Assembly: GCA_028710985.1 (NCBI GenBank)
Contig: JAQTTB010000001.1
Location: 523,014 to 587,013, forward strand
Source: Patescibacteria group bacterium
Lineage (GTDB): Bacteria > Patescibacteriota > Patescibacteriia > JAHJFT01
DNA: 64,000 bases
Direction of reading: 5' to 3'
The notes beneath the pieces were generated by a model that saw nothing but the letters and a program-made list of their open reading frames with translations, did no database searches and was not told the origin of the DNA. Numbering within the stretch: position 1 is the stretch's first letter; the number at the start of each line of letters is the position of its first letter. Below are positions 302 to 46,336 of the stretch, piece after piece. Made by a program: the position numbers and the translations under genes.

Positions 302-3300
302 ATGAAATTCGTACACCTGCACACGCACTCCCATTATTCTCTTCTTGACGGTCTTGGAAAAATTCCCGCTTTGGTTAGTCGGGCCAAGGAGCTTGGTATG
401 CCGGCACTCGCACTAACCGATCATGGCGCCATGTACGGCGCTATTGAATTTTATACGACCTGCCGGAAAGAGGGAATTAAGCCGATTATCGGCGTCGAGG
501 CTTATGTTGCGCCGAACCGCCGCTTTGATAAGCGGCCCAGAATTGATGACGGCGCGTTCCATCTCGTTCTGCTTGCCGAAACGCTTGAGGGATACAAAAA
601 TCTTCTGCGGCTAACCTCAAAGGCATATCTTGAGGGATTTTATTATCGGCCGCGCATGGACAAAGAAATTTTGCGGGAGTATTCACGCGGAATAATTGCG
701 TCAACCGCTTGTCTGGGCGGTCAGATACCGCGCGCTCTTATGGCCGAACGCTTTGAAGACGCGGAGAACCTGGTTACCGAATATAAATCAATTTTCGGGG
801 CAGATAATTTTTTTCTTGAGCTTCAGGACCACCCCGAATTGCCGGAATACGAAATTTTAAATCCGCGCATCATGGATCTCGCCAAAGCGACCGGCACCCC
901 ACTTATCGCCACTAAAGACATTCATTACGTTTATCCCGACGATCGCCAGGCACAGGATCTGCTGACTTGCGTGCAGACCGGTAAGACCGTAAATGACACG
1001 GACCGCCTCAACATGGCCAACCATGACGCCTCGATGACATCGCCCGAGCACATGGCCGAGGCCTTTGCTCACGTTCCCGAAGCGATTGAGAATACCGTGA
1101 AAATCGCCGAGCGCTGCAATGTGGAAATTCCGCTCGGCGGCAACATTCTTCCGGTTTTTCACGTGCCGACCGGCGAATCCGACAACGCCTATCTGCGCCG
1201 TCTTTGCGAAAAGGGACTTGGGGATCGCTTTCCCGTCGCCGGACCGGAAATCCGCGAACGGCTTGAGTACGAGCTTAGCACTATTGAACGAATGGGTTTT
1301 GCCTCGTATTTCCTGATTGTTTCGGATTTTGTGAACTGGGCCAAGGATCGAGGCATTATGGTCGGCCCGGGCCGCGGCTCGGCCGCCGGTTCGATCGTAT
1401 CGTATGTTTTAAAAATTACCGACATCGATCCATTGCGCTACGGCCTGCTGTTTGAAAGATTTTTGAATCCGGACCGCATTTCCATGCCGGATATCGACCT
1501 TGATTTTGCCGATGACCGCCGCGGCGAGGTGATTGAGTACGTCGTGAAAAAATACGGCAGCGACAATGTCGCTGGAATCATTACCTTCGGGACAATGGCC
1601 TCGCGCGCTGCGGTGCGCGATGTTGGCCGCGTCCTCGGCTGGCCGTACGGAGAAGTTGATCGCATTGCCAAACTCATCCCGCCGCCGATTCAGGGTAAGC
1701 ATATTCCGCTCGTGAAATCAGTCAAGGAAAATCCCGAGCTCCGCGCTGTCTACGAGGGAGACGCGCGTGTCAAAGAGCTTCTCGATCTCTCCATGAAACT
1801 CGAGGGGACCGTGCGCCACGCGTCCCAGCACGCCTGCGGCATCGTTATTTCCGACAAGCCGCTCACTGAATATGTGCCTCTCCAGGCGGTGCCGGATGGC
1901 GACATTGATCGGGTTACTCAGTATTCGCTCCATCCGATTGAGGATATCGGTCTTCTGAAGATGGACTTCTTGGGGCTCGCGAACCTGACCATCATTCAGA
2001 ACGCGTTGGATATCATCGGCGCGGTTTATCACGAAAAAATTGATATCGAAAAAATTCCTCTGGATGATAAGAAGGCATTCGAACTTCTCGGTCGCGGCGA
2101 AACGACGGGTGTGTTTCAGCTTGAGTCAGACGGCATGAAACGCTACATCAAAGAGCTTAAACCCACGGAAATGGAAGATATTATCGCCATGGTTGCGCTC
2201 TACCGCCCGGGCCCGATGCAATGGATTGACAGTTTCATCCGGCGCAAGCACGGTAAGGAGCGGATTGAATATGAGCATCCGCTGATGGAGAACGCGCTCA
2301 AGAACACATACGGCATTCCGGTTTATCAAGAACAGGTCATGCAGGTTTCAAAAGATATGGCCGGGTTTACCGGCGGCGAGGCCGATACTCTGCGCAAGGC
2401 CATGGGAAAGAAGATTGCCGCGCTCATGAAGGAGATGAAGGATAAATTTATCAAGGGCGCGGTCAAGCAGGGCGTGGCGCGTGACAAAGCCGACAAGGTA
2501 TTTACGCGTCTTGAAGACTTCGCGGCATACGGTTTTAACAAGTCGCACGCCACCTGCTATGCCATGATCGCTTATCGCACCGCGTTTCTCAAGGCGCGTT
2601 ATCCCAATTGTTTTATGGCCGCGCTCATGAATTCCGATTCCCAGAATATCGACCGCATCACCATTGAAGTCGATGAGTGTCGCAAGATGGGGCTGGAGGT
2701 CCTGCCGCCGGATGTTAATGAGTCATTTGGAAAATTTGCCATTGTGCCTAATACCAATAAAATTCGCTGGGGCCTTTCGGCAATCAAAAATCTCGGTGAA
2801 GATATCGTTAAGACAATTGTTCACGAAAGAAAAGCGAACGGCAATTTCCGCGACCTTGAAGATTTTATTTCACGCATCAATACAAAGAATTTTAACAAAA
2901 AATCCCTGGAATCGCTTATCCGCTCCGGCGCGCTTGATTTGTTCGGCGAGCGGAACCAGCTTTTGCAGAATATCGAAATACTTTTGGAATTTCATCGTGG
3001 CATTCAGAAAGAGATTGAAAGCGGCCAGTCCAGTCTCTTTGCCGGGTCGCCCGAGGTCGGCCGGTCAAGGCTCACCCTGCGTCCTGTCCCCGCCGCGCCA
3101 AAGAGAGAGCGTCTGCAGTGGGAGAGAGAACTATTGGGCCTTTACGTCACTGAACATCCGTTTCGCGAGCTCGAGGAGGCGCTCGGTGATGCGATTACAA
3201 GGCTTTCTGAGCTTGCGCACCGGCGCGAGGGATTCGTGAAAATTGGCGGCGTGCTTACAACGATGAAAAAAATCCTGACGAGAAAAAATGAAACCATGCT

Positions 3301-6842: not shown

Positions 6843-6922
6843 GTAGGGGCAGGCCTTGTGCCTGCCCTGTTTTAATGCCGTCTAAAATAGGCGACCGCAA
6901 GGGTCGCCCCTACAGCCTCTTG
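6843..6922. repeat. Composite palindromic element. It is bounded by CTGTAGGGGC / GCCCCTACAG inverted repeats and encloses two internal hairpins.
   Basis: Read directly: ctgtaggggcaggccttgtgcctgccc...ggcgaccgcaagggtcgcccctacag. It shares the GTAGGGGC motif with the palindromes at 26.6-28.5 kb. Confidence 0.5.
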
Positions 6923-18972: not shown

Positions 18973-19167
18973 TTAGCGGACGACCTGTTCCAACCCGAGG
19001 GTCAAAACATAATCGCATGCTCCTAAAAACACGGCAATTGCCAGGCTGATGCCGATCACGAGCATTGAATAGTGCGTAATTTCGGCACGGGTCGGCCAGG
19101 CGACTTTTTTTAGCTCGGCTTTTGAGGAGATGATGTACTCCACGATTTTATTTTCTTTCCAAGACAT
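18973..19167 (-). CDS. secE: Preprotein translocase subunit SecE
   Basis: 64 aa with a single C-terminal TM helix, in the conserved position upstream of nusG. Confidence 0.8.
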   Translation of the reverse strand: MSWKENKIVEYIISSKAELKKVAWPTRAEITHYSMLVIGISLAIAVFLGACDYVLTLGLEQVVR

Positions 19168-19242: not shown

Positions 19243-19278
19243 AAACGTAGTGACAAGTCGCGACTTGTCACTACGTTT
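19243..19278. terminator. Strong bidirectional hairpin aaacgtagtgacaagtcgcgacttgtcactacgttt
   Basis: A 15-bp perfect stem between convergent secE and gyrB. Confidence 0.6.
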
Positions 19279-25699: not shown

Positions 25700-25738
25700 A
25701 TGTATGGGTCGCATATATGCGCCCCGTACATTTATTTT
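25700..25738. terminator. Terminator hairpin tgtatgggtcgcatatatgcgccccgtaca (GCATATATGCG-loop family)
   Basis: Flanked by an A-run and a T-run. The plus strand gives the better pairing (U-G wobble). Confidence 0.55.
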
Positions 25739-26583
25739 CCCCACCCAATTACTCTCACCCGTCCGCACATATCGTCATACGGTTTAATCCGGTCGCGCGG
25801 GCCGATAAATTTGATTATTTTTTTGCCCTGCTCGGGATCAATTTCGAAATATGACTGCATGGAGTTGAGATTTGGCAAAATTTTCCGAATCTCGTTGATT
25901 AGCCGTCCGTAATATTTAAGTCCGTCTTTGCCGCCGTCAAGCGCGGCGCGCGGCTCGTATTTTTTCACATCCGCGGGGCACTCGCGCCACACCGCGGTCG
26001 GAAGATAGGGGAGATTGGCCACGATCAAAATATTGGGATTCTTTTTCCAGAATTCAATCGGCAAAGCCTTGAGCAAATCGGATTTTATAAAATCAATCTT
26101 TGCGCCAAGTTTTTTCGCGTTTTGTCGCGCGGTCTTAAGCGCGGCCGCCGAATTATCAATCGCAATGACTTTTACGCGCGGCTTGTTTTTGGCAATCGCA
26201 ATGGCAAGCGCGCCCGAGCCGGTACCTACATCGATTACGGCTGCGCGCGGATGTTTATTCAAATACTTCAACGCCAGGCTCACAAGCATTTCGCTTTCCG
26301 GCCGTGGAATAAGAACCTTTTTATTCACGCCGATCTTGAGTTTGTAAAAATATTTTATGCCCGTGAGATAGGCGACTGGCTCATGCCTGGTGCGGCGCCG
26401 AATTAACTTGGTAAATCGCGCCAGCTCCGGTGCTCGCAATTCTCTGTCCCGGTGCGCGAACAAAAAAACCCGGTCGCGTCCGAGCGCGTGCGCCAATAGA
26501 ATTTCGGCATCGAGATCTGGTGAATCAATATGATTCTGTTGTAAAATTTTCATTGCCCTGGAAAGGGCTTGGGTGATGGTCAT
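25732..26583 (-). CDS. prmC: Release-factor glutamine N5-methyltransferase
   Basis: Carries the SAM-binding DVGTGSGALAIAIAK and the NLPY (NPPY-type) motif. Confidence 0.85.
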   Translation of the reverse strand: MTITQALSRAMKILQQNHIDSPDLDAEILLAHALGRDRVFLFAHRDRELRAPELARFTKLIRRRTRHEPVAYLTGIKYFYKLKIGVNKKVLIPRPESEMLVSLALKYLNKHPRAAVIDVGTGSGALAIAIAKNKPRVKVIAIDNSAAALKTARQNAKKLGAKIDFIKSDLLKALPIEFWKKNPNILIVANLPYLPTAVWRECPADVKKYEPRAALDGGKDGLKYYGRLINEIRKILPNLNSMQSYFEIDPEQGKKIIKFIGPRDRIKPYDDMCGRVRVIGWGK

Positions 26584-26616
26584 ATCGTTATCATATCATG
26601 TTTATTGCATCATTCG

Positions 26617-26644
26617 GTAGGGGCGTATTGCAATACGCCCCTAC
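26617..26644. repeat. Perfect 28-bp palindrome GTAGGGGCGTATTGCAATACGCCCCTAC
   Basis: Read directly. It is a member of the GTAGGGGCG palindrome family. Confidence 0.7.
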
Positions 26645-26776
26645 AAGACGACCGCGCATTGACAACCCGGCGCGATTTTGGTACAAATCAATATCCCGCC
26701 GGAATATTTCCGGCCGGAAAACCATGGGTAAGGCTGGCGTCGCAATGCGGCGTTGGTAGGCCCAAGGAGGAAAGAG

Positions 26777-27388
26777 ATGTCCGAAAAGAAAATGATGAGT
26801 CCGAGGCAACTTCGCGAGCTCATGGCCGTGGTCAGCCGGCACCTGTCTATTCATCTGCCGGCCAAGGTGGCGCAGAGCGTGATCGACAAGCCCGGCGATT
26901 TGGAGTTTGAGCTCTGCGAGCTCTTCTGGCGCATCGCCGAAGCGAACGAGAAGGCAAGAAGGGCGGTGGAAGCGAAGCACATCATCGACTGCGACGCCGA
27001 CCCCTATCTGCTCGGCCTCTTCACCGTGGAAGAGCACCGGAGAAGCGGTCAGTTGGAGTGGGACCCGGACAAGGTCGTTCTTTACCTTTCCGATTTGCAG
27101 AGGGGTCGTAGTGTTGTCCAGGGCCACGCGCTCCGCAAGGAACTCCAAAATCAGTCGGTTCTGAACGCCTGCGTCCTGGATTACCTGCTCGTTCATCCAA
27201 ACCTCATTCCCATCATGTGGATGAGGATGCGGGTCTACTTCTGGGGTACGATTTATTGCGATCGAGAAGGTGACCTCTGCGTTCGCGGCCTCTTCTGGGA
27301 AGACGAAAAAGGGTGGTTCTGGCGCTACAAGCATCTTTCGCACGATTTCTACCGCGACGACACCGCGGCGGTTTCTGCAAGCGTCTAG
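26777..27388 (+). CDS. Hypothetical protein (higher-GC orphan gene flanked by palindromic repeats)
   Basis: An AAGGAGG RBS lies 7 nt upstream of an ATG at 26777. A private terminator (acccgtttgcattaaattgcaacgggtctttttt) sits downstream. No recognisable domain. Confidence 0.5.
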   Translation: MSEKKMMSPRQLRELMAVVSRHLSIHLPAKVAQSVIDKPGDLEFELCELFWRIAEANEKARRAVEAKHIIDCDADPYLLGLFTVEEHRRSGQLEWDPDKVVLYLSDLQRGRSVVQGHALRKELQNQSVLNACVLDYLLVHPNLIPIMWMRMRVYFWGTIYCDREGDLCVRGLFWEDEKGWFWRYKHLSHDFYRDDTAAVSASV

Positions 27389-27621
27389 TAGCGGCGCATT
27401 GCAATACGCTGCTACGCGCCGACCCCCTGACCCGTTTGCATTAAATTGCAACGGGTCTTTTTTATTTAAATGCGAGTAGGGGCGGACCCCTGCGTCCGCC
27501 CTGTTCGTCGGGCGTCCGCCCCTACCATTTGTCGTCACCAACAAACGGCCGGTCGTCGATTTTCACCGCGTAGGGGCGAACGGCCGTTCGCCCCTACCGT
27601 TGATCCGTAATACGCCCCTAC
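27388..27621. repeat. Cluster of GTAGGGGCG-family palindromes. The members are a degenerate copy at 27388-27415, a split copy at 27476-27535, a perfect copy at 27570-27597 and a half-site at 27607-27621. An intrinsic terminator at 27430-27463 lies among them.
   Basis: Read directly; the sequences are given in the findings. Confidence 0.65.
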
Positions 27622-27645
27622 CGGCGCAACCCCAATTCATTCCAT

Positions 27646-27673
27646 TTGATTTTAGGGGGAGGTATGATACAAT
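27646..27673 (+). promoter_or_regulatory. Promoter TTGATT-16-TGaTACAAT (extended -10) for the 27702 paralog
   Basis: Read directly. It lies in the duplicated leader segment. Confidence 0.4.
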
Positions 27674-27701
27674 AATATCAATTTAAAATTAAATTAAAAT
27701 T

Positions 27702-28421
27702 ATGGACAAAATCAACCCATCCATGCCCGGCGAGGCAAAAAATATGTCCGCGGTCTGGATAATCGTCGCCATCGTAATCGTCGCCGTCGCGCTCGGCGGA
27801 TTAATGTATTATTTTCAAACCCTGTCGCAAGAAAAATTCGTTGCGCAGGAACAGGCGATTAATGATTTGCGCGAAGAACTTGGTCAGCCGACGGTCGTGG
27901 CTGAGGAAGGGGTGGAAGAGGAAGGTTCGGCCGAGGAAGAATATCTTACCTTTGAATCCGAACCAGTTTCTGTTTTACCCGAGATATTCTCGTTTGAATA
28001 TGCCAAAGGTTGGCATATTTATCATGAATATGATCATGGATGGGGCGAGGAAAAAGAAATTAGCAAAATATTAGTTTCGCCTGACCCGCTTCAGATTGCG
28101 CTTGACGCCGAATATTTACCTCAAGTTTATATTCTTGTCGATTTTGACTCCGTGGATACTCTTGATGAGTTCGTCGATCGGAAGTATGGAGATTCGGTGG
28201 AAACGAGTGAGGACGTAATAATTGCCAACTATCCCGGAAAAAAGATACACGTTGTAGATGACAAGATCAGCGGAGAAGATATTGAGGTTTATGCCTTCGT
28301 ATCCCCCAATGCCGCGTATTCTATTTATATTTATTATCCCGGCATAAAACAAGCAAGCATTGACCTCCCGGCAGAATATCAGCGCATCATTGATTCATTC
28401 AAGATTGAGTCAGGCAGTTAA
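27702..28421 (+). CDS. Membrane-anchored hypothetical protein, paralog A
   Basis: The N-terminal 60 aa are near-identical to the 28631 gene (MDKINPSMPGEAKNMSAVWIIVAIVIV...QTLSQEKFVAQEQAI). An acidic linker and a divergent C-terminal domain follow. Confidence 0.55.
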   Translation: MDKINPSMPGEAKNMSAVWIIVAIVIVAVALGGLMYYFQTLSQEKFVAQEQAINDLREELGQPTVVAEEGVEEEGSAEEEYLTFESEPVSVLPEIFSFEYAKGWHIYHEYDHGWGEEKEISKILVSPDPLQIALDAEYLPQVYILVDFDSVDTLDEFVDRKYGDSVETSEDVIIANYPGKKIHVVDDKISGEDIEVYAFVSPNAAYSIYIYYPGIKQASIDLPAEYQRIIDSFKIESGS

Positions 28422-28432
28422 TCGCACGATTC

Positions 28433-28465
28433 AAAAAAGGCCGCGCGTTTATTGCCGGCCTTTTT
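28433..28465 (+). terminator. Terminator aaaaaaggccgcgcgtttattgccggccttttt
   Basis: Hairpin followed by a T-run after the stop of the 27702 gene. Confidence 0.55.
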
Positions 28466-28475
28466 GAATATACGC

Positions 28476-28545
28476 GCAGGGGCGTATTGTCGCGTAGGGG
28501 CGAACGGCCGTTCGCCCCTACCGTTGATCCGCAATACGCCCCTAC
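28476..28545. repeat. Nested palindrome. The outer arms are gcaGGGGCGTATTG ... GCAATACGCCCCTAC. The perfect inner palindrome GTAGGGGCGAACGGCCGTTCGCCCCTAC (28494-28521) is inserted between them.
   Basis: Read directly. Confidence 0.65.
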
Positions 28546-28569
28546 CGGCGCAACCCCAATTCATTCCAT

Positions 28570-28600
28570 TTGATTTTATCCGGGGGGGGGGTGGTATAAT
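28570..28600 (+). promoter_or_regulatory. Promoter TTGATT-19-TGgTATAAT carrying a G10 homopolymer (28582-28591) in the spacer.
   Basis: Read directly. The homologous position in the 27646 promoter has G5. Confidence 0.45.
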
Positions 28601-28630
28601 GCAATCAATAATTAAATCATTAAAATACAT

Positions 28631-29233
28631 ATGGACAAACTAAATGCATCCATGCCCGGCGTGGCAAAAAATATGTCCGCGGTCTGGATTATCGTCGCTA
28701 TCATCATCGTTGCCGCAATTCTCGGCGGAATGATGTATTATTTTCAAACCCTGTCGCAAGAAAAATTCGTTGCGCAGGAAGAGGCGATTGAGGCTCTACG
28801 CGCCGAGTTAAGCGAACCGGCCGCTTCAACTGCGGTAGAAGAAGAGGAGGCGGTTGCGGGAGATCAGGCCAAAGTCGAAGCAATTGATGAGCTTCAATAT
28901 GAAAACGATTATTATGGATTCAGCCTGTCATTCCCAGAGACATGGAGGGGCTATTCCGTTTATCATGAAGCCAATTCAATACATTTTGGTTTCGCGGCGG
29001 AGAAAGATCTCATGGCGATAGAAGTGATGGATTTGGAGGATTGGAAGATAATGAAAAAAGAATTGGATCTTCCGGGCCATGAAGCCGATGCGCTCTATAG
29101 CGCAGCCTACAGGGGCGAGAATGATAATTTCGCATTCTTTGGATGGGCGGCCCAAGACACGGTAAACGATGAGTTTATTCTTTCCAGAAGGATGGAAGTA
29201 GGGTCAATAATTAAAACGTTTAAAGCGAAATAG
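28631..29233 (+). CDS. Membrane-anchored hypothetical protein, paralog B
   Basis: MDKLNASMPGVAKNMSAVWIIVAIIIV...QTLSQEKFVAQEEAI. Tandem paralog of the 27702 gene. Confidence 0.55.
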   Translation: MDKLNASMPGVAKNMSAVWIIVAIIIVAAILGGMMYYFQTLSQEKFVAQEEAIEALRAELSEPAASTAVEEEEAVAGDQAKVEAIDELQYENDYYGFSLSFPETWRGYSVYHEANSIHFGFAAEKDLMAIEVMDLEDWKIMKKELDLPGHEADALYSAAYRGENDNFAFFGWAAQDTVNDEFILSRRMEVGSIIKTFKAK

Positions 29234-29242
29234 TTAAATAAA

Positions 29243-29285
29243 AAATCGCCCCGACGTTCACTTCATTCAGTCGGGACGATTTTTA
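29243..29285 (-). terminator. prfA terminator (hairpin tcgtcccgac...gtcggggcga plus U-run on the minus strand)
   Basis: The G-U wobble is satisfied only on the minus strand. Confidence 0.5.
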
Positions 29286-29310
29286 TTTTCTCAGTTCCCG
29301 ATTCACCGAT

Positions 29311-30381
<1,071 letters not shown>

Positions 30382-44452: not shown

Positions 44453-44465
44453 TTGGTTACAAAAT

Positions 44466-44506
44466 AAAAAAAGAACGGCCGTGTAATTATGCGGCCGTTC
44501 TTTTGA
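44466..44506. terminator. Terminator/palindrome aaaataaaaaaagaacggccg-tgtaattatg-cggccgttctttt. It is the left copy of a pair.
   Basis: Read directly. Its 21-nt left arm is identical to the one at 46296. Confidence 0.6.
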
Positions 44507-44554: not shown

Positions 44555-45460
44555 TTAAATACCGAGTTTTCTTAATGCCCTCAGTCCGTTAAAGCGGTCG
44601 ACGAGCTTGGTTTCAGTGCGGTTGTGCGGAGCACAGTATTCGGTCGCCCCCCAGAAAGCGCCCATCATGCCAGCGGCCTGGGCAAAATTTGCACGGCCGC
44701 GTTTGACCGAGTACAGGCGGCCGCGTATCTTGCGCAGATAGTGCCGCGGGATAAAGATGCGGCTGGTCTTATCCATGGCAATGCCGTTGATGACCACCGG
44801 AGCCTTTTGGATGTCGCGGACAATGGATTTCTTATGGTTGATCTGGAATCCAGCCGCGAGAATGATGCGCCGTATCATCTGCCGCTTTCTTTTGCCGATC
44901 GGTTCAGTCGCCGAAAAGGTCAGGTCGTCGAGATAGCGCGTATAGATGATGCCGTGGCGCCGGCAGAATTCGCCGAGCGGCCGGTCAAGAAGTTCGCCGG
45001 CATAGCGGTTGGCAAGATCCGGCGAAGCCGGCGCGCCGGTTGCGAGCCCACCCTCGTCTGCTATGCAGTACTTATTAAGAAAGGCGAGAAGCCCTGTCTC
45101 GTCCTCCATCAGCCGTTCGTCAAGATTCATGAGTATCCCGGCGAGCCGCTCGGCGTCCACGCTCGGATAGAAATTGTGGATGTCGGTGAGGTAGAAAAAG
45201 CGGTTGCCGCGGTGCCGGAGCACATTTTTCTTGGGGGATGAGCCGCGCATCGCGCCGGTGGCGTGCGGCAGGGGATGGTGCTCGAGAAGGTGGCGCCGCA
45301 AGTAAAAGATTAGCCCGCGGTGGACCTGGCGCATCGCGTTATTTGGCGCGTAGAGCGTGCGCATTTTTACGGTCTTCGCTACCGGATTTACGTCTCTGTA
45401 GGTAAATTTGTTGAACCCCGGAGTCCCATCTATGTTTTTCAGAATTATATCAAAGAGCAT
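44555..45460 (-). CDS. Retron-type reverse transcriptase
   Basis: An internal ATG at 45460 carries a TAAGGAGGG RBS. The motifs match the order seen in retron Ec86 RT: KMRTLYAPNNAMRQVHRGL, LTDIHNFYPSV, LATGAPASPDLANRY, GIIYTRYLDDLTFS (YxDD), FQINHKKS and VVINGIAM. The length is about 300 aa. The ORF-track N-terminal extension to 45880 reads through non-coding repeats. Confidence 0.8.
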   Translation of the reverse strand: MLFDIILKNIDGTPGFNKFTYRDVNPVAKTVKMRTLYAPNNAMRQVHRGLIFYLRRHLLEHHPLPHATGAMRGSSPKKNVLRHRGNRFFYLTDIHNFYPSVDAERLAGILMNLDERLMEDETGLLAFLNKYCIADEGGLATGAPASPDLANRYAGELLDRPLGEFCRRHGIIYTRYLDDLTFSATEPIGKRKRQMIRRIILAAGFQINHKKSIVRDIQKAPVVINGIAMDKTSRIFIPRHYLRKIRGRLYSVKRGRANFAQAAGMMGAFWGATEYCAPHNRTETKLVDRFNGLRALRKLGI

Positions 45461-45537
45461 GGCGCCCTCCTTATAGATTTTTGTGTAGGTTGATTTTAGT
45501 ACAGCGCCGAATAAAATGCAAGTAAATTTTTTTGGTA

Positions 45538-45900
45538 TAAAAAACGCATCAAACCAGGGGTTTGACGCGAAGGGAGAAACCCGATTTTCATCGGGCAGTG
45601 AATTCACAGCGGCGGGTTGGCCAAGTTCGTTGCCCGATTCTGGGTTCTGCGGACAACGATCAAGAGAACAGACTTTGCCGCTGAGGCTTCGATGCAGGGC
45701 CGAAACGGCAGCGCCGAGGCCGCAGGCCGGGGCGCCCTCTGTGCCGAAAGAAGAAGAGAAGGGGCGGATACTATGGCAATTTCCGTTTCCGGAAATCCCG
45801 CTGGCGCACCTTGATGCGCCAACCCTCGTGGGCAAGAGCACTTTGGCGTCCAGCCAGAACCAGGAAACCGTCTTGGCCAACCCGGACTGGACTTGGCTTT
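45538..45900 (-). ncRNA. Structured non-coding RNA unit 1, a candidate retron msr-msd-like RNA
   Basis: a1/a2-like long-range complement gggttggccaag (45613-45624) / cttggccaaccc (45872-45883). Hairpin cccga-N-tcggg. A terminal hairpin gcatcaaa...tttgacgc next to an A/T run. Homologous to unit 2 with compensatory changes. Confidence 0.4.
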
Positions 45901-45911
45901 ATCCTATCATA

Positions 45912-46295
45912 AACAAAAAAACGCATCAAACCAGGGGGTTTGATGCGAAGAGAGAGAGTCCCGACTCGGTCGGGAAGAAAGTGCAGCGGCGGGTTTGAGT
46001 CATTGTCCGCAAGGGACTTTCCGGGCATGGGAGCTTGCCGCTGAAGATACCCGTGGCGTCCGAGGGCACTGAACAACGGGCCGAATCAGCCACTGCGGCC
46101 GCTGATCCGCCTCATGCAGATACCAACGGGAGCGCTTCGGGTTGCCCAGGGGCGATGGGGTACTGTTCAAAGCCCTGGTTTAACCCTTTGGCGCACCTGA
46201 AATGCGCCAAGACGATGAGCACCGAGGATCTCACCCGGAATGAACTAGCTCAAACCCAGCCAAGGTGGCTATGAAGAGGGTAGCATAAAATTCAA
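45912..46295 (-). ncRNA. Structured non-coding RNA unit 2, tandem paralog of unit 1
   Basis: a1/a2-like complement cgggtttgag (45992-46001) / ctcaaaccc (46250-46258). Hairpin cccgac-tcg-gtcggg. Terminal hairpin gcatcaaa...tttgatgc followed by an A/T run. Confidence 0.4.
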
Positions 46296-46336
46296 AATAA
46301 AAAAAGAACGGCCGCGATATCGTGGGCCGTTCTTTT
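46296..46336. terminator. Terminator/palindrome aaaataaaaaaagaacggccg-cgatatcgtg-ggccgttctttttt. It is the right copy of the pair.
   Basis: Read directly. Confidence 0.6.

What the first reader, a model, noticed from the sequence alone, without database searches (positions are those of the whole stretch)
26617..28545. Family of 28-bp GTAGGGGCG...CGCCCCTAC palindromes with self-nested copies
At least eight copies or half-copies of a palindrome with conserved GTAGGGGCG / CGCCCCTAC termini occur between 26.6 and 28.6 kb, plus a composite relative at 6843-6922. There are two perfect variants: GTAGGGGCGTATTGCAATACGCCCCTAC, and GTAGGGGCGAACGGCCGTTCGCCCCTAC, which occurs twice.

At 28476-28545 the second variant sits exactly in the centre of a copy of the first, whose two arms are thereby separated. 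At 27476-27535 another copy is split by a 24-nt insert.

Self-targeted nested insertion of this kind is the signature of mobile palindromic elements (REP, BIME or MITE-like) rather than of simple operator sites. No RAYT-type HUH transposase gene is visible nearby.
Basis: seen in the sequence. Interest (0 to 1): 0.6.

Follow-up and report, generated by a model that had tools for sequence, protein, structure and literature searches.

The report
Double-foot REP palindromes in a Patescibacteria genome
The GTAGGGGCG...CGCCCCTAC palindromes are real and belong to an already described class of small repeated hairpin elements ("double-foot" REPs, partnered with RAYT transposases). Here they sit in a 2.7-kb gene island that splits the prfA-prmC operon of a tiny candidate-phyla bacterium.

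Summary
There are three perfect 28-bp palindromes GTAGGGGCG-N10-CGCCCCTAC (0 expected by chance), one degenerate copy, three half copies and two composites.

They match the "double-foot" REPs described by Quentin et al. 2018: a 5' GT[AG]G, a 3' C[TC]AC and three G-C pairs at the base of the stem. That paper ties them to TnpA_REP/RAYT subclass 2.4 (Bertels Group 4).

I confirmed the link directly. The pattern occurs in at least 120 genome loci from more than 20 phyla. 14 RAYT-like genes in those and in metagenome loci carry one of these palindromes in frame, just after the HUH motif. Often the same variant also flanks the gene. Both variants seen in the window have such partner genes elsewhere.

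An HMM search found no RAYT in the 64-kb window. The rest of the source genome could not be searched.

Three syntenic relatives have prfA and prmC adjacent and no palindromes, so window 26584-29310 is a lineage-specific insertion. A fourth relative carries the same REP variant at other sites, and a third variant in frame inside prmC.

The "nested" copy is real but was unique among 425 elements examined.

Verdict: a new member of a known kind, of modest interest.

The parts
26617..26644 (.). Perfect double-foot REP, variant 1 (GTAGGGGCG TATTGCAATA CGCCCCTAC). It lies 33 nt upstream of the prmC start, at the left edge of the island.
   Evidence: The ssDNA fold is -13.5 kcal/mol, z -6.6. A Logan contig carrying the identical prmC ends 1 nt beyond this palindrome.
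27388..27415 (.). Degenerate variant-1 copy (GTAGCGGCGCATTGCAATACGCTGCTAC). It overlaps the last base of the p203 stop codon.
   Evidence: 81% identity over 37 nt to the 26617 copy, 24 of 28 over the palindrome itself. Pair 5/24 is changed on both sides, and pair 6/23 is G-T. The predicted DNA hairpin is weak (z -0.97).
27476..27525 (.). Composite element: a one-foot REP (GTAG-GGGCGGAC-CCCTGC-GTCCGCCC) followed by a second 3' arm with its foot (GTCCGCCCCTAC). This looks like a partly deleted inverted dimer.
   Evidence: pair I12. Fold -18.1 kcal/mol, z -3.9.
27570..27597 (.). Perfect double-foot REP, variant 2 (inner AACGGCCGTT).
27608..27621 (.). Right half of variant 1 (TAATACGCCCCTAC, 13 of 14 bases match). 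No left half is present.
28476..28545 (.). Nested structure: left half of variant 1 (28476-28489, GCAGGGGCGTATTG), TCGC, perfect variant 2 (28494-28521), CGTTGATCCG, then right half of variant 1 (28532-28545).
   Evidence: pair I16. It folds as a hairpin within a hairpin, -30.8 kcal/mol, z -5.7. It is the only REP-in-REP case among 425 double-foot elements.
27567..27654 (+). 88-nt module containing REPs. It is duplicated at 28491-28578 (99% identity), just upstream of the promoter-like sites of the paralogous genes p239 and p200.
   Evidence: family D2; the coding regions are only 87% identical, family D1. A promoter-like site lies at 27646-27673.
6843..6913 (.). Inverted dimer of two different one-foot GTAG REPs, with the GTAG ends outside (REPIN-like, or 'HH' dimer). 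It lies between thrS and the next gene.
   Evidence: Fold -22.1 kcal/mol, z -4.9.
26584..29310 (+). Lineage-specific island between prmC (25732-26583, minus strand) and prfA (stop codon at 29311, minus strand). It holds all the clustered REPs and three plus-strand genes: p203 (26777-27388), p239 (27702-28421) and p200 (28631-29233).
   Evidence: Three syntenic relatives have prfA and prmC 15-39 nt apart, the same flanking genes and no GTAGGG palindromes.
19247..19274 (.). Possible relative: a 28-bp perfect palindrome with GTAG/CTAC feet but no GGG stem base (GTAGTGACAAGTCGCGACTTGTCACTAC). It is intergenic, between an unannotated 64-aa ORF (18973-19167, minus strand) and gyrB.
   Evidence: z -8.2. 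This variant was not found in any fetched locus.

Best explanation
These are repetitive extragenic palindromes (REPs) of the 'double-foot' type.

**Structure.** Each is a 28-bp palindrome whose ends read GTAG...CTAC and whose stem starts with three G-C pairs. When the DNA is single-stranded, for example at a replication fork, or when it is transcribed, either strand folds into the same hairpin. That hairpin has a 12-bp stem with a GTAG at its 5' base.

**Partner enzyme.** This hairpin-plus-GTAG is the substrate form recognised by REP-associated HUH tyrosine transposases (RAYT/TnpA_REP). The partner clade here is subclass 2.4, also called Group 4. These enzymes cut and rejoin single-stranded DNA next to the hairpin. 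Such activity would spread copies into intergenic DNA and sometimes in frame into genes. It would also leave inverted dimers, half copies and the occasional nested copy.

**Setting in this genome.** In this Patescibacteria genome the elements cluster in a 2.7-kb island that has been inserted between prfA and prmC. A further dimer lies at 6.8 kb.

**Shown:** the sequences, their folding, the family's distribution, its physical association with RAYT genes in other genomes, and presence/absence differences among related genomes.

**Inferred:** that a RAYT acts, or once acted, on these copies in this particular genome, and the cleavage chemistry, which is taken from work on E. coli TnpA_REP.
For: **1. 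Anatomy.** The elements have GTAG and CTAC feet, a GGG/CCC stem base and perfect 14+14 symmetry. Their ssDNA hairpins are far more stable than shuffles. This matches the 'double foot' REPs of subclass 2.4 in Quentin et al. 2018 (PMC6006769).

**2. Family behaviour.**
- The pattern is present in at least 120 genome loci from more than 20 phyla.
- The inner 10 nt vary (62 variants), yet pairs 1-3 are complementary in 98% of instances and the central pairs in 83-88%.

**3. RAYT link.**
- A search seeded with E. coli RayT, followed by jackhmmer, found RAYT-like genes in 3 of 120 genome loci and 11 of 120 metagenome loci. No other protein family recurs in more than 5 of the 120 genome loci.
- In 13 of these 14 genes the palindrome lies in frame just after the MPNHxHG (HUH) motif.
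- The same variant also flanks the gene in L011, L113, L142 and L234.
- L234 carries both of the window's variants.
- NCBIfam REP_Tyr_transpos scores E 2.9e-16. Homologues are annotated RayT and carry PF01797.

**4. Mobility among relatives.**
- Three syntenic genomes lack both the island and the REPs.
- Contig L215 has the same L25-DUF3048-prmC gene order. It has variant 2 between DUF3048 and prmC, and another double-foot REP in frame inside prmC. The window has a REP at neither site.

**5. Partial copies elsewhere.** Partial arm duplications like the window's half copies recur in other genomes.

**6. Copy number.** Low copy numbers fit Group 4, whose flanking 16-mers occur about 14 times per replicon (PMC5581495).
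Against: - No RAYT gene or fragment is present in the 64-kb window. An HMM built from 120 homologues, run against the six-frame translation, gave a best E of 0.69. The remaining roughly 680 kb of the source contig could not be searched.
- None of the named top RAYT homologues comes from Patescibacteria.
- Only three or four sites occur in 64 kb, and most copies sit in one island. High copy number in this genome is therefore not shown.
- The L011 RAYT-like protein scores below the curated cut-offs: NCBIfam 59.7 against 80 bits, Pfam 19-22 against 23 bits.
- No biochemical data exist for subclass 2.4 enzymes acting on double-foot REPs, as far as I could find.
Confidence: 0.82

Rival explanations
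1. Fossil or orphan REPs. The elements belong to the REP family but are no longer mobile in this genome. They arrived with the inserted island, or were left behind by a RAYT that has since been lost. Any present role would be structural, for example hairpins that protect mRNA 3' ends or insulate neighbouring genes.
For: - No RAYT is present in the window.
- Most copies lie in one lineage-specific island.
- One copy is degenerate and several are halves.
- The copies sit between what look by eye like intrinsic terminators (27430-27465, 28436-28466) and the next promoter-like site.
- Roles for REPs in 3' UTRs are known in E. coli (abstracts listed).
Against: - Three copies are still perfect 28-mers, and the 88-nt module is 99% identical while the adjacent coding sequence is only 87% identical. 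Both points argue for recent copying.
- A related contig has the same variant at other sites.
- This rival differs from the main explanation only in whether the elements are active now.
Confidence: 0.25
2. Cassette boundaries. The REPs are the recombination or cleavage sites through which the three accessory genes were captured and inserted between prfA and prmC. In this reading a REP-gene-REP unit moves in the same way as a RAYT gene flanked by REPs.
For: - Each of the three island genes is preceded by REPs.
- p203 is bracketed by two variant-1 copies whose similarity extends 6 nt beyond the palindrome (34-nt inverted pair, 85% complementary, pair I1).
- The island is absent from three syntenic relatives.
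Against: - REPs prefer intergenic DNA in any case.
- Homologues of p203 in other genomes are not flanked by REPs.
- No REP lies at the right edge of the island.
- No second copy of any REP-gene-REP unit was found.
Confidence: 0.1
3. Operator array. The palindromes are binding sites for a dimeric transcription factor that regulates the island genes.
For: The sites are perfect dyad symmetries located just upstream of promoter-like sites of paralogous genes.
Against: - The inner 10 bp differ between copies yet stay self-complementary. A protein that reads only the outer 9-mers would not require that.
- Identical 28-mers occur in hundreds of unrelated contexts in more than 20 phyla, and inside RAYT genes.
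- No regulator gene lies in the island.
Confidence: 0.03
4. DGR accessory hairpin. p203 belongs to a family of proteins that diversity-generating retroelements (DGRs) mutate. On this reading, the palindrome at its stop codon would be the hairpin that marks the target of mutagenic homing.
For: - Homologues of p203 lie next to bAvd and reverse transcriptase genes.
- Those homologues show variable-region/template-repeat pairs in which 24 of 24 mismatches fall at template adenines.
- They also have a short hairpin directly after the stop codon.
Against: - No template repeat for p203 exists in the window.
- The hairpins in the homologues are unrelated in sequence.
- The other palindromes are not next to any variable region.
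- No reverse transcriptase or Avd gene is enriched near the 120 genome loci.
Confidence: 0.03

Closest known systems
'Double-foot' REPs of TnpA_REP subclass 2.4 (Quentin et al. 2018, PMC6006769), equivalent to RAYT Group 4 (Bertels et al. 2017, PMC5581495)
   Same: - 5' GTAG and 3' CTAC feet.
- Three G-C pairs at the base of the stem.
- A long stem.
- Scattered distribution over many phyla.
- Moderate copy number.
[quoted passage not shown]
   Different: - The host is a Patescibacteria (CPR) genome, a group not mentioned in that paper (0 occurrences of the name).
- No partner RAYT was found in the 64 kb available.
GTAG-tagged REP superfamily (Di Nocera et al. 2013, PMC3733652), including the E. 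coli REP/BIME elements and the Stenotrophomonas SMAG elements
   Same: - A GTAG tetranucleotide next to a GC-rich hairpin.
- Intergenic location.
- Dimers with the GTAG ends outside (6843-6913).
- Clustering.
- Sub-families that differ by complementary stem changes.
   Different: In those families the GTAG is unpaired and present at one end only, and the loops are usually not self-complementary. Here most copies carry the tag on both strands and are symmetric through the centre.
REPINs (Bertels and Rainey 2011, PMC3116915)
   Same: Two inverted REPs with a short spacer that can fold into one long hairpin. The element at 6843-6913 has this structure.
   Different: - The two halves at 6843-6913 have different stems.
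- Only one copy is seen.
- REPINs are tied to RAYT Groups 2 and 3 in Proteobacteria and occur in hundreds of copies.
IS200/IS605 transposon ends (IS608, ISDra2)
   Same: Subterminal hairpins in single-stranded DNA are recognised by a Y1 HUH enzyme, and there are no target-site duplications.
   Different: Those elements carry their own transposase between two different ends. The 28-bp palindromes carry nothing.

Membership tests
Double-foot REP (TnpA_REP subclass 2.4 / RAYT Group 4) | [quoted passage not shown] | tested here: met
   The definition is from PMC6006769.
Double-foot REP (TnpA_REP subclass 2.4 / RAYT Group 4) | Base of the stem formed by three consecutive G-C pairs | tested here: met
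   GTAG-GGG...CCC-CTAC is present in every perfect copy, in the halves and in the composites. It is not present in the 19247 palindrome, nor in the degenerate copy at 27388, whose stem base reads CGG.
Double-foot REP (TnpA_REP subclass 2.4 / RAYT Group 4) | A partner tnpA_REP gene flanked by, or containing, the same REP | tested here: inconclusive
   Met in other genomes for both variants: L011 and L234 for variant 1; L142, L234 and eight further loci for variant 2. Not met within the window. The rest of the source genome could not be searched.
GTAG-tagged REP superfamily | A 20-40 bp palindrome that forms a stable stem-loop, tagged with GTAG | tested here: met
GTAG-tagged REP superfamily | Many dispersed extragenic copies in one genome | tested here: inconclusive
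   All copies in the window are extragenic, and at least two separate sites exist in 64 kb (6.8 kb and 26.6-28.5 kb). The genome-wide count is not available. An independent assembly breaks at the palindrome.
GTAG-tagged REP superfamily | Occurrence as inverted dimers or clusters | tested here: met
   The inverted dimer at 6843-6913 and the cluster at 27388-27621.
MITE (derived from a DDE-transposase insertion sequence) | Terminal inverted repeats around an internal sequence, flanked by target-site duplications | tested here: not met
   The whole element is the palindrome. Flanks of 22 copies in other genomes show no direct repeats.
DGR target-recognition hairpin | A hairpin directly downstream of a variable region that has a matching template repeat | tested here: not met
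   No template repeat for p203 in the window.
Known structured RNA families (Rfam) | A match to a curated covariance model | tested here: not met
   No hits at gathering score anywhere in the window.

The most novel reading that the evidence does not exclude
The source genome may truly lack a RAYT. In that case its REPs, which are identical base for base to copies in at least seven other phyla, were either acquired horizontally or mobilised in trans. The REP-gene-REP arrangement of the island would then mark a route by which accessory surface-protein genes, including a DGR-type variable protein, are captured into the core operons of ultra-small CPR genomes.
Probability: 0.1. Interest if true: 0.65.

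Novelty: new member of a known kind. Interest (0 to 1): 0.33.

Why it matters
- It assigns a conspicuous repeat to a described family, so the locus need not be treated as an unknown regulatory array.
- It extends that family to a Patescibacteria genome of under 1 Mb, where repeated and mobile DNA is expected to be scarce.
- It shows that the repeats accompany a lineage-specific island that splits the normally fused prfA-prmC pair.
- It gives clean comparative examples of REP gain, including an in-frame insertion in prmC of a relative.
- Exactly the same 28-mers in at least seven phyla raises the question of how these elements and their RAYTs move between lineages.

Tried and rejected
- **p203 as the transposase.** It is flanked by two palindromes, but it has no Pfam hit. 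Its homologues are DGR variable proteins.
- **RAYT remnants near the palindromes.** tblastn found only the peptide encoded by the palindrome itself.
- **A gene family recurring next to the palindromes in 120 genome loci.** All-against-all clustering found none in more than 5 loci. The RAYT genes appeared only with a seeded profile search.
- **A template repeat for p203.** None was found by BLAST or by an adenine-tolerant sliding comparison.
- **Rfam and tRNA scans of the window.** Nothing was found.
- **Nested insertion as a general property.** It occurs in 1 of 425 elements.
- **Dissemination of the 88-nt module.** Only the REP part has matches elsewhere.
- **Literature search for the literal sequence.** The listed top hits were unrelated papers.
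- **Elhai et al. 2008 on small cyanobacterial repeats.** The paper is not held in the library.
- **Terminator scan.** The tool did not call the two terminators I see by eye at 27430-27465 and 28436-28466. They remain visual calls only.
Full report
**1. The observation**

The pattern GTAGGGGCG-N10-CGCCCCTAC matches perfectly at 26617-26644, 27570-27597 and 28494-28521. No match occurred in any of 100 shuffles. The 9-mer GTAGGGGCG occurs 11 times against 0.26 expected.

Reading the sequence and the repeat tables adds the following members:
- A degenerate copy at 27388-27415, with a compensatory change at pair 5/24.
- A right half of variant 1 at 27608-27621.
- A left half at 28476-28489 and a right half at 28532-28545. 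Together they bracket a perfect variant 2.
- A composite at 27476-27525.
- An inverted pair of two one-foot GTAG hairpins at 6843-6913.

As single-stranded DNA, all but the degenerate copy fold far better than shuffled controls, with z from -3.8 to -6.6.

- The insert in the nested copy is 42 nt, not 28.
- The 'split' copy ends at 27525, has 26 nt between its arms, and those 26 nt contain a duplicate of the 3' arm.
- 27567-27654 and 28491-28578 are one 88-nt module duplicated at 99% identity, while the adjacent coding regions are 87% identical. Several of the 'copies' are therefore not independent.

**2. Setting**

The source is a Patescibacteria MAG. The protein p203 is identical to an NCBI entry, 'PHW53_02645, Patescibacteria group bacterium', on a contig of 744,538 bp.

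The clustered palindromes lie between prmC (25732-26583, minus strand) and prfA (from 29311, minus strand; Pfam assignments). Three plus-strand genes share that interval: p203, p239 and p200.

Three related genomes, with PrmC 54-55% identical, have exactly the same gene order from gyrB to DUF4015. In them prfA and prmC are 15-39 nt apart, and there is no GTAGGG palindrome in 12.8 kb. Window 26584-29310 is therefore a lineage-specific insertion that splits the prfA-prmC pair.

An independent Logan assembly of the identical prmC stops 1 nt beyond the first palindrome. That is what happens when an assembler meets a repeat.

**3. The family outside this genome**

These come from more than 20 phyla:
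- Chloroflexota, Cyanobacteriota, Planctomycetota and Omnitrophota.
- Bacteroidota and its relatives, Acidobacteriota and Gemmatimonadota.
- Deltaproteobacterial lineages, Gammaproteobacteria and Alphaproteobacteria.
- Nitrospinota, Latescibacterota, Binatia, Atribacterota, Bipolaricaulota and Calditrichota.
- Spirochaetota, Armatimonadota and Clostridia.
- The CPR group Kuenenbacteria.

Among 127 instances the inner 10 nt take 62 forms. Pairs 1-3 are complementary in 98% of instances and the two central pairs in 83-88%.

The exact variant-1 28-mer recurs in nine genomes from at least seven phyla. Variant 2 alone is found in at least 120 metagenome contigs. The generic pattern occurs in 111 stretches of viral contigs.

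**4. What they are**

All-against-all clustering of neighbouring ORFs found no recurrent family. A search seeded with E. coli RayT, followed by jackhmmer, did find something. RAYT-like genes were present in L011 (Salinibacteraceae), L113 (Arenimonas) and L069 (Calditrichaceae).

In all three genes the 28-bp palindrome lies in frame directly after the HUH motif (MPNHxHG). In L011 and L113 a second copy with the same inner sequence lies just upstream of the gene.

Among the 120 variant-2 metagenome loci, 11 carry such a gene. Ten have the palindrome inside it, encoding VGANGRSPL. L142 has it upstream, inside and downstream. L234 has both of the window's variants upstream. None of the 111 viral loci has such a gene.

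The L011 protein matches NCBIfam REP_Tyr_transpos at E 2.9e-16, which is below the curated cut-off. It matches Pfam Y1_Tnp only weakly. The L234 protein has about 8,000 homologues at E below 1e-10. Several of those that carry a source name are called 'REP element-mobilizing transposase RayT', and many have PF01797.

This is a described situation. Quentin et al. 2018 report that TnpA_REP subclass 2.4 is associated with 'double foot' REPs. These have a 5' GT[AG]G, a 3' C[TC]AC and three G-C pairs at the stem base. [quoted passage not shown] The authors equate it with Group 4 of Bertels et al. 2017. Group 4 is found in 61 species of 17 classes, with flanking 16-mers present only about 14 times per replicon (PMC5581495).

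The wider GTAG-tagged REP superfamily, with its dimers and clusters, is described by Di Nocera et al. 2013 (PMC3733652). The window's elements meet every structural criterion.

**5. Mobility**

Besides the empty sites in three relatives, contig L215 is informative. It has the same L25-DUF3048-prmC order, at 41-45% protein identity to the window's genes.
- It carries variant 2 in the 37-nt gap between the stops of DUF3048 and prmC.
- It carries another double-foot REP (inner GAGAGGCCTC) in frame inside prmC. This adds RRGERPLAPT at a position where the window and two of the syntenic relatives (L360, L361) have a six-residue gap in the alignment.
- The window has no element at either site.

Extra arms next to a full element recur in other genomes: L143, L246, L248, L156 and L162. 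The window's half copies fit that pattern.

By contrast, a REP nested in the centre of another REP was seen only in the window, among 425 double-foot elements. Three other elements sit in the centre of an unrelated inverted repeat.

Quentin et al. suggest that a double foot can arise by central deletion of an inverted dimer. The window contains what looks like each stage:
- A full heterodimer at 6843-6913.
- A partly deleted dimer at 27476-27525.
- Perfect 28-mers.

**6. What could not be shown**

No RAYT is present in the window. An HMM built from 120 homologues and run without filters against the six-frame translation gave a best E of 0.69, while the positive controls scored 1e-35 to 1e-72. 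tblastn found no fragments. The other roughly 680 kb of the source contig were out of reach. Whether these copies are active or fossil remains open.

**7. Rivals**

- An operator array is unlikely. The inner sequence varies yet stays self-complementary, and the same 28-mers occur in hundreds of unrelated contexts.
- A DGR role was considered because p203 belongs to a DGR variable-protein family. However, there is no template repeat in the window, and the relatives use unrelated hairpins.
- A cassette-boundary role is compatible with the layout of the island but has no direct support.

**8. Verdict**

The elements are a new member, in Patescibacteria, of a known kind. Interest is modest.

Noticed in passing
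window 26777-27388 (p203); loci L124 6001-7099 and L126 4564-5615: p203 belongs to a Patescibacteria protein family that is a target of diversity-generating retroelements (DGRs). Homologues lie next to bAvd and reverse transcriptase genes. They have a C-terminal variable region with a template repeat about 350 nt downstream of the stop codon (24 of 24 mismatches at template adenines in L124). The window holds no template repeat for p203.
   Followed up: yes
window 44558-45880 (minus strand), 45530-45630, 45907-46007, 44460-44504, 46293-46336: A reverse transcriptase gene (RVT_1, E 4e-10) is preceded by two copies of an ~80-nt element. Both copies share a conserved hairpin (CGCATCAAACC...GGTTTGAYGCG) and the motif GCAGCGGCGGGTT. 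The whole unit is bracketed by 45-nt hairpin repeats. No Avd gene and no template/variable repeat pair was seen. It could be a retron-like or other RT-with-ncRNA unit.
   Followed up: partly
window 19247-19274: A 28-bp perfect palindrome with GTAG/CTAC feet but a different stem and no GGG base (GTAGTGACAAGTCGCGACTTGTCACTAC). The pairing extends to 36 bp. It lies between an unannotated 64-aa ORF (18973-19167, minus strand) and gyrB. No copy was found in any fetched locus.
   Followed up: partly
loci L001-L120 (127 instances of the pattern): The palindromes are symmetric through the centre. The central dinucleotide is GC (60 instances) or AT (50), and almost never CG (0) or TA (2). A hairpin constraint alone does not explain either the central symmetry or this purine-pyrimidine bias.
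   Followed up: partly
L215 2835-2862, inside prmC (2282-3205, minus strand): A double-foot REP is inserted in frame in the release-factor methyltransferase gene of a related bacterium. It adds RRGERPLAPT in a loop before the GTGSG motif.
   Followed up: yes
L248 1951-2667 (minus strand): A RAYT-like gene whose variable loop holds three tandem half-REP units (encoding VGANKKN three times) before the full REP (VGANGRSPL). This shows that partial REP duplications accumulate inside the transposase gene itself.
   Followed up: partly
L153 1196, L217 253, L237 286: Variant 2 sits in the centre of an unrelated inverted repeat (GGACTTACGCA...TGCGTAAGTCC) in three metagenome contigs. This suggests that the centres of other hairpin-forming repeats can receive REPs.
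   Followed up: no
window 29298-29325: An 8-nt unit (CCGATTCA) is repeated three and a half times across the stop codon of prfA, at the right edge of the island. It lies next to a hairpin at 29247-29280 shared by the convergent genes p200 and prfA.
   Followed up: no
window 27702-28421 and 28631-29233: p239 and p200 are paralogues that share only the N-terminal ~58 residues, which include a run of hydrophobic residues, at 87% nucleotide identity. Their C-terminal parts are unrelated. Neither has a Pfam family above threshold.
   Followed up: partly
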